Shown piece by piece: positions 1 through 1,261 of a stretch of 3,479 bases of DNA. The first letter of the stretch is position 1. Each line of letters begins with the position of its first letter. The position numbers and the translations under genes are program-made. Under the pieces are notes generated by a model that did not search any database, was not told the origin of the DNA, and worked only from the letters and a program-made list of their open reading frames with translations. The stretch comes from Escherichia phage Phi05_1999 B, in sequence record KM389437.1. One strand, given 5' to 3'.

Positions 1-56
1 AGAGGAAGAGGAAGAGGAAGATATATATAAAACCCCACACATAGCGCACGTGCGCG
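1..56. other. Possible right arm of a phage replication origin embedded in the O gene: GAGGAA x3 tandem hexamer (2-19), (AT)n/A-rich run (20-34), perfect 12-bp palindrome GCGCACGTGCGC (44-55)
   Basis: Repeats and palindrome read directly from the sequence. In lambda the origin lies inside O as iterons, then an AT-rich region, then a palindrome. The iterons would lie upstream of the window and are not visible. Confidence 0.35.
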
Positions 57-442
57 AGGGTGCTCCGACCAGTGAAGCGAACGGTATGCCGTTGCAGGTG
101 GCTGAACCTGAATTTCTGGATGGCCTGAGTGAACCCATCGGGAAATTTCCGATGACCGATGGCTGGCTACCGTCGCCAGATTTTCGGCGGCGTGCTGCGC
201 TGTGGGGAACGGCCCTGCCGGAACCGGAATTTACACCTGCTGAACTTGCTGCATTCCGGGATTACTGGATGGCTGAGGGCAAAGTGTTCACGCAGGTTCA
301 GTGGGAACAAAAATTCGCCAGGCACGTAAATCATATCAGGGGAAAATCAAAAAATGCCGGGAAAAGCGATGAGCTTGACTGGAATAACACTGACTGGATA
401 GAAGGGGTGTGGGATGAAATCAACTCCAGAACTTCTCAATGA
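2..442 (+). CDS. O: Replication initiation protein O-like, C-terminal (P-interacting) portion; 5' end lies outside the window
   Basis: The frame of the 50..442 ORF stays open back to position 2 (EEEEEEDIYKTPHIAHV-REGAPT...), so the GTG at 50 is internal and the gene is truncated by the window edge. The C-terminal end (...SDELDWNNTDWIEGVWDE) resembles the lambda O C-terminus (...LDLTNTDWIYGVDL, from memory). Position immediately upstream of and overlapping a P-like gene matches lambda O-P order. Stop TGA 440-442. Confidence 0.75.
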   Translation, partial: EEEEEEDIYKTPHIAHVREGAPTSEANGMPLQVAEPEFLDGLSEPIGKFPMTDGWLPSPDFRRRAALWGTALPEPEFTPAELAAFRDYWMAEGKVFTQVQWEQKFARHVNHIRGKSKNAGKSDELDWNNTDWIEGVWDEINSRTSQ

Positions 443-1190
443 GTACGATCGCTTACGTGAGCATGGTGTTGCTGTGCATGAAGAGCGGCGGGACTGCAAT
501 GGCAAAAAGGAGCAGGTTGCTAGAATTTTCAATGAACTATTTGTCCAGTTACAGGCTGCATTTCCTGCAAGCGTTTCGACCATAAGGGAGCAGAACAAAC
601 TTAATGAATTCCGTAAGCAATGGATGCTTGCGTTTCTGGAGAATGGGATCACTACAATGGAACAGGTTAACGCTGGTATGCGCCACGCCCGCGCCAGTGA
701 ATCTCCGTTCTGGCCGTCGCCAGGGCAATTTATCAAGTGGTGTAAAGACAGCAAGATGGTTCTTGGCGTCACCATTGACGATGTGATGGCGGAGTTTCAC
801 CGGTACAGCAAGGAAAAAAGTTTATATCCTGGTGGTCCCGAAAGATTCCCGTGGCGGCATCCGGTTATGTACTGGGTCGTATGTGATACCCGCCGTGCAA
901 TGTATCAGCGCCAGCTTAGCGAGATTGAGGTTGAGAAACACGCGCGCAGGCTGCTCGATGATTGGGCGAAAAAGGTGGCTTCCGGACAGCAGATACCCGA
1001 TCCGGTGATCAGCATACAGGCAAAGCCAGAACCCATGAGTACACCTCCGGACACAGGGAGAGACGTTTACCATCCACCAGGGCGAAGTTTCGGGTGCATG
1101 CCTAACGCCGCCACCCTGGGGGGAATAACACCGGCGCAGTGGCTGATGGAGGAGTACAGGCGGGGAAAGGCAGCAGGATTTATCAAGTAA
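414..1190 (+). CDS. P: Replication protein P-like (DnaB helicase loader), 258 aa
   Basis: Translation aligns by eye with lambda P from memory: here LFVQLQAAFPASVSTIREQNKLNEFRKQWMLAFLENGITTMEQVNAGMRHARASESPFWPSPGQFIKWC versus lambda VFSQLLATFPASLANRDQNEVNEIRRQWVLAFRENGITTMEQVNAGMRVARRQNRPFLPSPGQFVAWC. N-terminal length before this block is the same. SD AAGGGG (402-407) lies 6 nt upstream of ATG 414. Start overlaps the O stop by 29 nt. Stop TAA 1188-1190. Confidence 0.88.
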   Translation: MKSTPELLNEYDRLREHGVAVHEERRDCNGKKEQVARIFNELFVQLQAAFPASVSTIREQNKLNEFRKQWMLAFLENGITTMEQVNAGMRHARASESPFWPSPGQFIKWCKDSKMVLGVTIDDVMAEFHRYSKEKSLYPGGPERFPWRHPVMYWVVCDTRRAMYQRQLSEIEVEKHARRLLDDWAKKVASGQQIPDPVISIQAKPEPMSTPPDTGRDVYHPPGRSFGCMPNAATLGGITPAQWLMEEYRRGKAAGFIK

Positions 1191-1215: not shown

Positions 1216-1226
1216 ACGTCTCGATA

Positions 1227-1243
1227 ATTACCTGTTAGGTAAT
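1227..1243. promoter_or_regulatory. Perfect 7-3-7 palindrome ATTACCT-gtt-AGGTAAT (candidate operator, copy 1)
   Basis: Arms are exact reverse complements. A second near-identical copy lies 62 bp downstream, centre to centre. Confidence 0.4.
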
Positions 1244-1261
1244 AAAATGTTCTAAAATCTA

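What the first reader, a model, noticed from the sequence alone, without database searches (positions are those of the whole stretch)
1..56. Window appears to start inside an origin-like segment embedded in O
In frame with O the sequence runs GAGGAA x3 (encoding EEEEEE), then an (AT)n/A-rich run, then a perfect 12-bp palindrome GCGCACGTGCGC. Lambda's origin lies inside O as four iterons, an AT-rich unwinding region and a palindrome, so this looks like the AT-rich and palindrome side of an equivalent origin, with iterons expected just upstream of the window. The GAGGAA repeats could also be relevant to an O-binding or DNA-bending role, but that is speculative.
Basis: partly seen in the sequence, partly recalled or inferred. 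Interest (0 to 1): 0.45.

Follow-up and report, generated by a model that had tools for sequence, protein, structure and literature searches.

The report
Phage replication origin inside initiator gene
The first 56 bases of the window are most likely the DNA-opening half of a phage replication origin that sits inside the phage's own initiator gene, with the initiator-binding repeats just upstream of the window, the same layout as in phage lambda but built from unrelated parts.

Summary
In detail: (GAGGAA)x3 at 2-19, ATATATATAAAA at 21-32 and the palindrome GCGCACGTGCGC at 44-55.

The window is 100% identical to Escherichia phage Phi05_2388 B (Uetakevirus), so I could read the upstream DNA. The predicted repeats are there. 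The heptamer GTAACGC/GCGTTAC occurs at a 12-bp period, three exact copies plus one degenerate copy ending 2 nt before the window. It forms a 19-bp palindrome, and a second 19-bp palindrome lies 209 bp further up. The two 28-nt copies are in different reading frames.

Across about 140 distinct relatives from several phyla, the heptamers sit at the same two places and are followed by a purine-only run and then an AT run. Codon choice shows selection on the DNA itself: GGT 38/39, TTA 34/35, AGA 50/50.

The gene is not a lambda O homologue. It has an unclassified N-domain, a disordered linker that carries the origin, and a DnaT-like ssDNA-binding domain. A lambda-P-family helicase loader follows it. 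Module swapping breaks at window positions about 20-35.

The exact palindrome is expected by chance and is broken in close relatives.

Verdict: a probable iteron-type origin, a new member of a known kind, not tested by experiment.

The parts
1..21 (+). Purine-only run AGAGGAAGAGGAAGAGGAAGA, containing (GAGGAA)x3 at 2-19. It starts 1 nt after the last (degenerate) heptamer. Proposed as part of the DNA-unwinding region; it also encodes the acidic EEEEEE stretch of the linker.
   Evidence: It is the only homopurine run of 14 nt or more in 5.6 kb. All family representatives have a purine run here, (GAGGAA)n or (GAGAA)n, with purine fraction 0.78-0.81 against about 0.53. Arg codons in the tract are AGA 50/50 against 7.7% elsewhere. 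The block is invariant at synonymous sites in genes only 68% identical. Copy number is 2-5 in close relatives.
21..32 (.). A/T run ATATATATAAAA. It is the proposed melting point of the origin and the mosaic junction between the N-domain/iteron module and the C-domain/loader module.
   Evidence: The least stable 30-nt window of the gene starts at window position 3. Family-wide GC drops to 0.36 at +10 to +40 after the last heptamer. N-module similarity ends, and C-module similarity begins, at query nt 410-425, which is window positions about 20-35.
30..43 (+). Block AAACCCCACACATA, the left end of the DnaT-type C-terminal module. It is shared with initiators that have unrelated N-domains.
   Evidence: It is present at the start of the similarity in Rac-SA53, Actinobacillus phage pPE4 and PPompW prophages, and in epsilon15/SPN1S.
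44..55 (.). Perfect 12-bp palindrome GCGCACGTGCGC (codons A-H-V-R), within a GC-rich tract of alternating purine and pyrimidine (37-56). It is a possible boundary element of the origin; the role of the exact palindrome is doubtful.
   Evidence: Searches confirm it. It is expected by chance in 51% of shuffles. It is broken in close relatives L105, L106, L111, L112 and L113, and shortened in PPompW. However, inverted repeats with arms of 6 or more occur at this position in 18/44 family representatives against 32/430 control windows (Fisher p = 1.8e-8).
2..442 (+). 3' part (codons 131-276 plus stop) of the replication initiator gene. The full gene is L001 3612-4442, 276 aa.
   Evidence: phrog_2509 'replication initiation protein', E = 2e-129. 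Annotated as DnaT-like or primosomal protein I in relatives. In the AF2 model aa 91-160 are disordered.
146..358 (+). DnaT-like ssDNA-binding domain (aa 179-249) of the initiator.
374..409 (+). C-terminal tail LDWNNTDWIEGV, similar to the lambda O tail LDLTNTDWIYGV. Candidate contact with the P-type loader.
   Evidence: BLASTP of the pair, E = 0.003 for the single comparison. This is a weak match, and the contact is an inference.
414..1190 (+). Lambda-P-family helicase loader gene, overlapping the initiator gene by 29 nt.
   Evidence: Pfam PF06992, E = 1.6e-55. 39% identity to lambda P, E = 6e-49.

Best explanation
Window 1-56 is the right-hand, DNA-opening half of an iteron-type phage replication origin embedded in the linker-coding part of the phage's initiator gene.

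Proposed mechanism:
1. The N-terminal domain of the initiator (an unclassified family) binds GTAACGC half-sites. These form 19-bp palindromes in two clusters: one inside the N-domain coding region, and one that ends 1-13 nt before the window.
2. The resulting nucleoprotein complex destabilises the adjacent purine run (window 1-21) and AT run (21-32).
3. The C-terminal part of the initiator brings in the host DnaB helicase, bound by the lambda-P-like loader encoded next (414-1190). That C-terminal part comprises the DnaT-like ssDNA-binding domain and a lambda-O-like tail.
4. The AT run also serves as the joint at which N-domain-plus-iteron modules and C-domain-plus-loader modules are exchanged between phages.

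Shown by sequence and comparison: the repeats, their position, the DNA-level selection on repeats and purine tract, the domain identities and the mosaic joint. Inferred, not tested: binding of the N-domain to the heptamers, melting at window 1-32, helicase delivery and origin activity itself.
For: **Upstream repeats**
- The 28-nt repeat GTAACGCnnnnnGCGTTACAAAAGGAGT occurs twice, 209 bp apart, 25/28 identical, at codon phase 2 in one copy and phase 1 in the other.
- 5 of the 6 GTAACGC heptamers in the 5.6-kb locus lie at gene nt 149-376, where 0.54 are expected.
- In a whole related genome (ZX5, 39.6 kb) the only cluster is here: 5 copies in 228 bp, the rest singletons.

**Conservation**
- The heptamers are kept in genes 84%, 79% and 68% identical. 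The Rac-type gene has a 12-bp insertion that adds one heptamer, and its second cluster is in another frame.
- In 140 distinct loci from Enterobacterales, Pseudomonas, Planctomycetota, Verrucomicrobiota and others, the hits pile up at gene nt 100-199 (265 hits) and 300-449 (349 hits). Hits are sparse elsewhere in the ±1.5-kb flanks, apart from a small group just upstream of the start codon (41 hits at -100 to -1).

**Codon tests on representatives below 85% amino-acid identity**
- Gly50 is GGT in 38/39, against 24% gene-wide.
- Asn51 is AAC in 38/39, against 64% gene-wide.
- The Leu of 'ALP' is TTA in 34/35, against 11.7% elsewhere.
- Arg in the tract is AGA in 50/50, against 7.7% elsewhere.

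**Co-variation with the initiator**
- The epsilon15/SPN1S subtype uses TGTCCGC.
- Aeromonas phage pAEv1818 uses GTCACGC.
- Unrelated N-domains (K-12 YdaU, PPompW, pPE4) carry their own different repeats at the same place.
- Several of these are followed by the same tract grammar.

**Fit with the protein**
- The origin falls in the AF2-disordered linker, aa 91-160.
- The C-domain matches the DnaT ssDNA-binding fold.
- The next gene is a lambda-P homologue.

**Parallel with lambda**
- Read directly from the sequence: dyad iterons TCCCTC-N-GAGGGA, then the purine-rich AT tract AAAAGAAAAAAGAAAAGA, then a 28-bp palindrome. Recombination joints are annotated just after the AT tract.
- Two iterons plus the AT region suffice for unwinding in lambda (PMC7466680).
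Against: - There is no experimental evidence for replication from this site, or from any member of this initiator family, in the literature I could search.
- The AT run is only 12 nt, against 38 nt in lambda, and about 130 windows elsewhere in the 5.6-kb locus, mostly intergenic, are less stable.
- Glu and Lys codons are purine-only by necessity, so part of the purine run comes from coding a charged linker. Only the Arg (AGA) choice separates the two explanations.
- Some relatives carry an extra heptamer pair just before the start codon, which would also fit an autoregulatory role for these sites.
Confidence: 0.78

Rival explanations
1. The heptamer clusters are regulatory operators, for autoregulation by the initiator or for binding by another phage protein, and not an origin. 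Window 1-56 would then be only a charged linker next to them.
For: Several relatives (for example L019, L023, L025, L062, L161-L170) have an extra palindromic heptamer pair 19-42 nt before the start codon, where an autorepressor would bind. A conserved small Cys/His-rich ORF of unknown function lies directly upstream in the enteric group.
Against: The two invariant clusters lie inside the coding sequence, far from any promoter. They are always followed directly by a purine/AT tract that is itself under DNA-level selection. The heptamer follows the N-domain across phyla, including in loci where the neighbouring genes differ. Initiator binding sites that double as autoregulatory sites are common in iteron replicons (my own knowledge), so the upstream pair does not argue against an origin.
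Confidence: 0.1
2. The features are by-products of protein coding. An acidic, disordered linker gives GAR codons, 'AHVRE' gives the GC-rich palindrome, and a repeated peptide motif GNAxxVT gives the heptamers. On this reading there is no cis-acting function.
For: Glu, Lys and AGR-Arg codons are all purine. In Pseudomonas-type genes the second cluster reads GNAxxVS like the first. The palindrome is expected by chance and is not kept in close relatives.
Against: The two 28-nt copies in this phage are in different frames and encode different peptides, GNAGSVTKGV and VTPTALQKEL. Synonymous positions are fixed across phyla: GGT 38/39, TTA 34/35, AGA 50/50, against gene-wide usage of 24%, 12% and 8%. 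The GAG/GAA alternation is invariant in genes only 68% identical overall.
Confidence: 0.04
3. The conserved DNA block around window 1-35 is only a module-boundary sequence. It would be kept because it provides the homology for recombination between phage replication modules, and it would play no part in initiation.
For: N-module similarity stops, and C-module similarity starts, within window positions about 20-35. The same N-module is joined to at least three different C-modules with different loaders.
Against: Recent recombination cannot explain retention of the purine/AT grammar across Planctomycetota, Verrucomicrobiota, Pseudomonas and enteric prophages at 50-60% protein identity. In lambda the hybrid joints also lie just after the origin's AT tract. 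A joint and an origin are therefore compatible roles, not alternatives.
Confidence: 0.06

Closest known systems
ori-lambda inside gene O of phage lambda and lambdoid/Stx phages
   Same: - The origin lies in the middle of the initiator gene, in the segment between the DNA-binding N-domain and the loader-contacting C-domain.
- The repeats have internal dyad symmetry of about 18-19 bp (lambda TCCCTC-N-GAGGGA; here GTAACGC-N5-GCGTTAC).
- A purine-biased AT tract follows, then a palindrome.
- The next gene is a P-family helicase loader (39% identical).
- Hybrid and mosaic joints lie just after the AT tract.
(PMC3349717; PMC7466680.)
   Different: - The initiator is not homologous to O: no PF04492 hit, and only a 12-residue similarity at the tail.
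- The repeats share no sequence with lambda's.
- They come as half-sites at a 12-bp period in two clusters about 200 bp apart, instead of four tandem 18-bp iterons.
- The AT run is 12 nt, against 38 nt in lambda.
- The C-domain is a DnaT-like ssDNA binder.
DopC/DopE and lambdoid 'O-like N-domain + DnaT C-domain + P' modules (PMC5509034)
   Same: The architecture is the same: an initiator-like protein with a DnaT C-terminal motif encoded directly upstream of a lambda-P-family gene.
   Different: DopC has an HTH_36-type, O-like N-terminus. Its authors found no iterons, and it is a domesticated chromosomal gene. Here the N-domain is a different, unclassified family, and the gene carries a conserved repeat/purine/AT array.
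Origins inside initiator or replisome-organiser genes of other phages (P22 ori in gene 18; SPP1 oriL in gene 38). Named from my own knowledge; not checked here beyond the SPP1 mention in the title and abstract of PMC5737612.
   Same: The principle is the same: a cis-acting origin nested in the gene of the protein that recognises it.
   Different: The proteins and repeat sequences are unrelated, and I made no direct comparison.
E. coli primosomal protein DnaT
   Different: NCBIfam's DnaT equivalog scores 92 bits against a cutoff of 201. The N-terminal half is unrelated. The gene is a phage gene, and annotations such as 'primosomal protein I' over-name it.

Membership tests
Lambda-type origin embedded in the initiator gene (functional class) | Several copies of a short repeat, able to bind the initiator, inside the initiator's own coding sequence | tested here: met
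   GTAACGC/GCGTTAC occurs 5 times exactly, plus 1 degenerate copy, at gene nt 149-388, against 0.54 expected in the locus. The copies are conserved in position in about 140 loci. Binding itself was not tested.
Lambda-type origin embedded in the initiator gene (functional class) | An easily melted AT-rich tract directly beside the repeats | tested here: met
   The purine run and ATATATATAAAA at window 1-32 form the least stable 30-nt window of the gene. The family-wide GC dip reaches 0.36. The tract is short compared with lambda's.
Lambda-type origin embedded in the initiator gene (functional class) | The fragment supports autonomous replication when the initiator and loader are supplied | not testable with these tools
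   This needs a plasmid replication assay or marker-frequency analysis.
Lambda O protein family (Pfam PF04492 Phage_rep_O) | Sequence membership of the initiator | tested here: not met
   No Pfam hit other than DnaT. BLASTP against lambda O aligns only the last 55 residues or so, at E = 0.003.
Lambda P helicase loader family (PF06992) | Sequence membership of the downstream gene product | tested here: met
   E = 1.6e-55, 188 bits against a cutoff of 26. 39% identity to lambda P.
DnaT (primosomal protein I) equivalog | Full-length match above the NCBIfam cutoff | tested here: not met
   NF002770 scores 92.1 bits against a cutoff of 201, and only the C-domain aligns. The domain-level match is solid.
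PHROG 2509 'replication initiation protein' | Full-length profile match | tested here: met
   E = 2.3e-129, residues 1-268 on profile positions 1-277 of 277. The family name is an annotation, not a tested function.
Winged-helix / HTH iteron-binding initiators (Rep_3, RepA-like) | N-domain with a recognisable DNA-binding fold | tested here: inconclusive

The most novel reading that the evidence does not exclude
An undescribed origin 'grammar' may be shared by a very widespread prophage initiator family found in Enterobacterales, Pseudomonas, Planctomycetota, Verrucomicrobiota including Akkermansia, and others. The grammar is GTAACGC heptamers, then a (GAGAA)n or (GAGGAA)n purine tract, then an AT run, then a GC-rich inverted repeat. 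On this reading, selection on the origin DNA dictates invariant residues of the initiator itself (G-N-A, A-L-P, the charged E/K/R linker), and the purine tract rather than a long AT stretch is the element that opens. If so, the origins of thousands of uncharacterised prophages could be located from sequence alone, and the family would become a model for how one stretch of DNA serves as both coding sequence and origin.
Probability: 0.3. Interest if true: 0.6.

Novelty: new member of a known kind. Interest (0 to 1): 0.45.

Why it matters
An origin nested in the initiator gene is textbook biology, so the principle is not new. What this adds:
- It places the likely origin of Uetakevirus-type and many other prophages, including a prophage region of E. 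coli APEC O1.
- It links an unclassified, cross-phylum N-terminal domain family to a specific DNA motif.
- It gives a clear case of one stretch of DNA under two constraints at once, shown by codon choices fixed at 97-100% against background usage of 8-24%.
- It explains why replication modules in these phages break and rejoin at exactly this point.
- It corrects the 'primosomal protein I / DnaT' annotations.
- It provides a sequence rule for locating origins in related prophages.

Tried and rejected
**Sequence and fold searches for the N-domain**

**A link between the purine tract and the DnaT-like ssDNA-binding domain**
- Rejected as a requirement. The tract and heptamers stay with the N-domain when the C-domain is swapped (Klebsiella phi3.2 and Rac-type genes).
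- Only 1 of 10 distant representatives has a DnaT domain.

**The palindrome as a hairpin or an antisense terminator**
- ssDNA folding is no better than shuffles.
- The minus-strand terminator-like hit is within the chance expectation: 1 found against 1.8 expected.

**The palindrome as a conserved dyad**
- It is broken in close relatives and absent in PPompW.
- What persists is a GC-rich tract of alternating purine and pyrimidine, and, family-wide, some inverted repeat at this position.

**Tying the element to the experimentally known oriJ of prophage Rac**
- K-12 has no oriJ feature annotated.
- The oriJ plasmid paper (Plasmid 44:111) is not held in the library.
- The 'oriJ' primers of PMC3945230 map inside ydaV, about 260-410 nt downstream of the end of ydaU.
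- This neither supports nor contradicts the finding. K-12 YdaU also has a different N-domain (DUF1376).

**GC skew of a whole related genome**
- It follows transcription direction and is not informative.

**Alignment with ori-lambda**
- There is no sequence similarity to align. Only the architecture is comparable.

Full report
**1. What is in the window**

Positions 1-56 read AGAGGAAGAGGAAGAGGAAGATATATATAAAACCCCACACATAGCGCACGTGCGCG.
- (GAGGAA)x3 is at 2-19.
- A pure A/T run, ATATATATAAAA, is at 21-32.
- The perfect palindrome GCGCACGTGCGC is at 44-55.

Frame 2 is open from the window edge to a stop at 440-442. It encodes EEEEEEDIYKTPHIAHVRE and onwards.

How these features compare with chance:
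- The 21-nt purine-only run (1-21) is unique in the window and in 5.6 kb of surrounding phage DNA.
- The least stable 30-nt duplex window of the gene starts at window position 3.
- A perfect 12-bp palindrome turns up in 51% of shuffles of the window.
- As single-stranded DNA the region folds no better than shuffles.

Only the purine/AT part stands out statistically on its own.

**2. Source and upstream sequence**

The first 1200 nt match KM389252.1 (Escherichia phage Phi05_2388 B, genus Uetakevirus) at 100%. They match phage ZX5, phage HEMP4 and prophages in many E. coli genomes, including APEC O1, at about 99%. A direct comparison confirmed identity for window nt 1-1587.

In locus L001 (that record, reverse-complemented) window position 1 is L001 4001. 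The gene runs from L001 3612 to 4442 (276 aa), so the window begins at codon 131. The neighbourhood, in order, is:
- a repressor gene;
- a cro-like gene;
- a small Cys/His-rich ORF;
- this initiator gene;
- a lambda-P-family gene (window 414-1190);
- a DUF1064 gene.

**3. The predicted repeats exist**

Directly upstream of the window lie GTAACGC (L001 3957), GTAACGC (3969), GCGTTAC (3981) and a degenerate GAGTTAC (3993-3999, ending 2 nt before the window). They are spaced 12 bp apart.

The middle two form the 19-bp palindrome GTAACGCCAACAGCGTTAC. A second palindrome, GTAACGCTGGCAGCGTTAC, lies at 3760-3778.

The two palindromes belong to a 28-nt direct repeat (25/28 identical, 209 bp apart). 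Five of the six GTAACGC copies in the 5.6-kb locus are in this stretch, against 0.54 expected. In the complete 39.6-kb ZX5 genome the only cluster is here.

The two 28-nt copies sit in different codon phases and encode different peptides, GNAGSVTKGV and VTPTALQKEL. The repeat is therefore a property of the DNA, not of the protein.

**4. Comparative evidence**

*Close and intermediate relatives.* Genes 84% (Enterobacter phage BUCT554), 79% (Klebsiella phage ST11-OXA245phi3.2) and 68% (a Rac-type ydaU; phage 666R9) identical keep the heptamers at both places.
- The Rac type has a 12-bp insertion that adds exactly one heptamer.
- Its second cluster is in another reading frame.
- The block GTTACCAGAGGAAGAGGAAGAGGAAGATATAAATA is almost invariant, including the synonymous GAG/GAA alternation, although third codon positions elsewhere are heavily diverged.

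*The wider family.* A profile of the N-domain recovered 160 loci from Enterobacterales, Pseudomonas, Xanthomonas-type phages, Planctomycetota, Verrucomicrobiota (including Akkermansia) and others. In the 140 distinct ones:
- heptamer hits pile up at gene nt 100-199 (265 hits) and 300-449 (349 hits);
- hits are sparse elsewhere in the ±1.5-kb flanks, apart from a small group just upstream of the start codon (41 hits at -100 to -1).

*Codon tests.* In representatives below 85% amino-acid identity, the codons that carry the motif are nearly fixed against background usage:

| Position | Codon at the site | Usage elsewhere |
|---|---|---|
| Gly50 | GGT 38/39 | 24% |
| Asn51 | AAC 38/39 | 64% |
| Leu of 'ALP' | TTA 34/35 | 11.7% |
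| Arg in the charged tract | AGA 50/50 | 7.7% |

*The tract after the last heptamer.* Every representative that has the second cluster has a purine run there, (GAGGAA)n in enteric genes and (GAGAA)n elsewhere, followed by an ATAAA-type run. Purine fraction is 0.78-0.81 and GC is 0.36, against about 0.53 for both in the flanks.

*Co-variation with the initiator subtype*:
- The epsilon15/SPN1S subtype (about 36% identity) has TGTCCGC/GCGGACA in two clusters, then CAGAGAAGAGAAGAGAAGAGAAGATATTAAACCCC.
- Aeromonas phage pAEv1818 has GTCACGC, then (AGATAA)n.
- Initiators with unrelated N-domains (K-12 YdaU, PPompW, Actinobacillus pPE4) carry their own different repeats at the same position.

**5. 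The protein**

- Pfam sees only a DnaT domain at aa 179-249.
- PHROGs places the whole protein in phrog_2509, 'replication initiation protein'.
- NCBIfam's DnaT model is far below its cutoff.
- The N-domain has no Pfam or PDB sequence match.

An AlphaFold2 model built on 30 homologues gives three parts:
- a helical N-domain with a beta hairpin (aa 16-87, pLDDT 62-81);
- a disordered stretch at aa 91-160;

The N-domain found no convincing structural neighbour. The second heptamer cluster, the purine/AT tract and the palindrome all fall in the disordered linker, which is the part of the protein least constrained by folding.

The protein is not a lambda O homologue. Its last residues do resemble the lambda O tail, LDWNNTDWIEGV against LDLTNTDWIYGV. 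The next gene product is 39% identical to lambda P.

**6. Mosaic joint**

- Similarity to phages that share the N-module ends at gene nt about 410-425.
- Similarity to phages that share only the C-module (Rac-SA53, pPE4, PPompW) begins at 412-419.
- Both boundaries correspond to window positions about 20-35.

The same N-module is joined to a DnaT-type C-domain with a P-type loader, to a YdaU-type C-domain with a DnaC-like loader, and to a third type. Heptamers and purine tract travel with the N-domain. Only 1 of 10 distant representatives has a DnaT domain.

**7. The palindrome**

Evidence against a role for the exact sequence:
- In C-module relatives the equivalent sequence is GCGCGCGCGTGCGCG, or a 6-bp shorter form with no palindrome.
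- Among the closest relatives the perfect dyad is broken in L105, L106, L111, L112 and L113.

Evidence for some structural element at this position:
- An inverted repeat with arms of 6 or more occurs within 70 nt after the tract in 18/44 representatives.
- The rate is 32/430 in control windows from the same loci (Fisher p = 1.8e-8), 6% in shuffles and 9% in upstream windows.
- These repeats have unrelated sequences.

Some GC-rich or dyad element bordering the tract is therefore recurrent, but the exact 12-mer in this window cannot be claimed to function.

**8. Comparison with lambda, read from NC_001416**

Lambda has four iterons with internal dyads (ATCCCTCAAAACGAGGGA), then a purine-rich AT tract (…AAAAGAAAAAAGAAAAGATTATT…), then a 28-bp palindrome. 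Annotated recombination joints lie just after the AT tract, and gene P follows. PMC3349717 and PMC7466680 describe the same parts. PMC7466680 also notes that two iterons plus the AT region suffice for unwinding.

The layout here matches in order and geometry but shares no sequence, and the initiator N-domain is unrelated. PMC5509034 describes O-like proteins with a DnaT C-terminal motif next to P-like genes, and found no iterons in the domesticated versions.

**9. Conclusion**

The best explanation is an iteron-type origin nested in the initiator gene, with window 1-32 as its opening region and window positions about 20-35 as a module joint (confidence about 0.78).

Binding, melting and origin activity are inferred. 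I found no experimental work on this family in the searchable literature.

The attempt to connect it to oriJ of Rac was inconclusive.

It is a new member of a known kind. The conservation is striking and the dual coding is clear, but the principle is ordinary.

Noticed in passing
window 1228-1242 and 1290-1304; also L001 2167, 2229, 2941, 2958, 2989, 3150, 3326: The operator-like palindrome TTACCTNNNAGGTAA occurs 9 times in 5.6 kb, against 0.10 expected. Seven copies lie around the repressor and cro-like genes. Two perfect copies lie between the P-like gene and the DUF1064 gene, one of them overlapping a promoter-like site at window 1221-1248. This suggests a repressor-controlled promoter downstream of the replication genes.
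   Followed up: partly
window 374-409: The initiator's C-terminal tail LDWNNTDWIEGV resembles the lambda O tail LDLTNTDWIYGV (BLASTP E = 0.003 for the pair), although the rest of the proteins are unrelated. Both precede P-family loaders, so this may be the P-contact motif.
   Followed up: partly
L019, L023, L025, L026, L062, L063, L161-L170: 19-59 nt before the initiator start codon: Some relatives carry an extra GTAACGC/GCGTTAC pair just upstream of the start codon, which could be an autoregulatory site. This phage's lineage has none.
   Followed up: no
window 2-19; loci L112-L115, L005, L062, L118, L120, L133, L144, L145: The GAGGAA unit varies from 2 to 5 copies among close relatives. This fits replication slippage and changes the length of the Glu run in the linker.
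   Followed up: partly
window 37-56 and the equivalent positions in L009, L010, L011, L105-L113: The perfect palindrome is not what is conserved after the AT run. What persists is a GC-rich tract of alternating purine and pyrimidine (CACACATA + GCGCACGTGCGCG, GCACACGCGCGCG, GCGCGCGCGTGCGCG). A second C-module type instead has CCCCCC-N3-CCCCCC-AA-GGGGGG there.
   Followed up: partly
L008 (E. coli K-12 Rac prophage) 5241-5395, inside ydaV: The primers described as framing oriJ in PMC3945230 amplify a piece of ydaV, about 260-410 nt downstream of the end of ydaU. K-12 ydaU (DUF1376 type) nevertheless has its own ATGTTCAA-type repeats in two clusters, followed by an AT-rich tract and CCCCCCCGGGGG in its linker. 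Where oriJ lies exactly could not be settled.
   Followed up: partly
C-termini of the initiators in L005, L006, L007, L008, L012 (…IPPGFRG) and L017 (…PPGFN): Initiators that are not followed by a P-type loader end in a shared IPPGFRG-like motif, whatever their N-domain. It may be a docking motif for a host or DnaC-like partner.
   Followed up: no
L001 3419-3631 (upstream of the window): A 70-aa Cys/His-rich ORF (phrog_1081, function unknown) overlaps the start of the initiator gene by 20 nt. A hypothetical-protein ORF of similar size occupies the same position in BUCT554, Klebsiella phi3.2 and SPN1S, though its similarity to this one was not checked.
   Followed up: no
window 414-442: The initiator and P-like genes overlap by 29 nt in different frames, which suggests translational coupling.
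   Followed up: no
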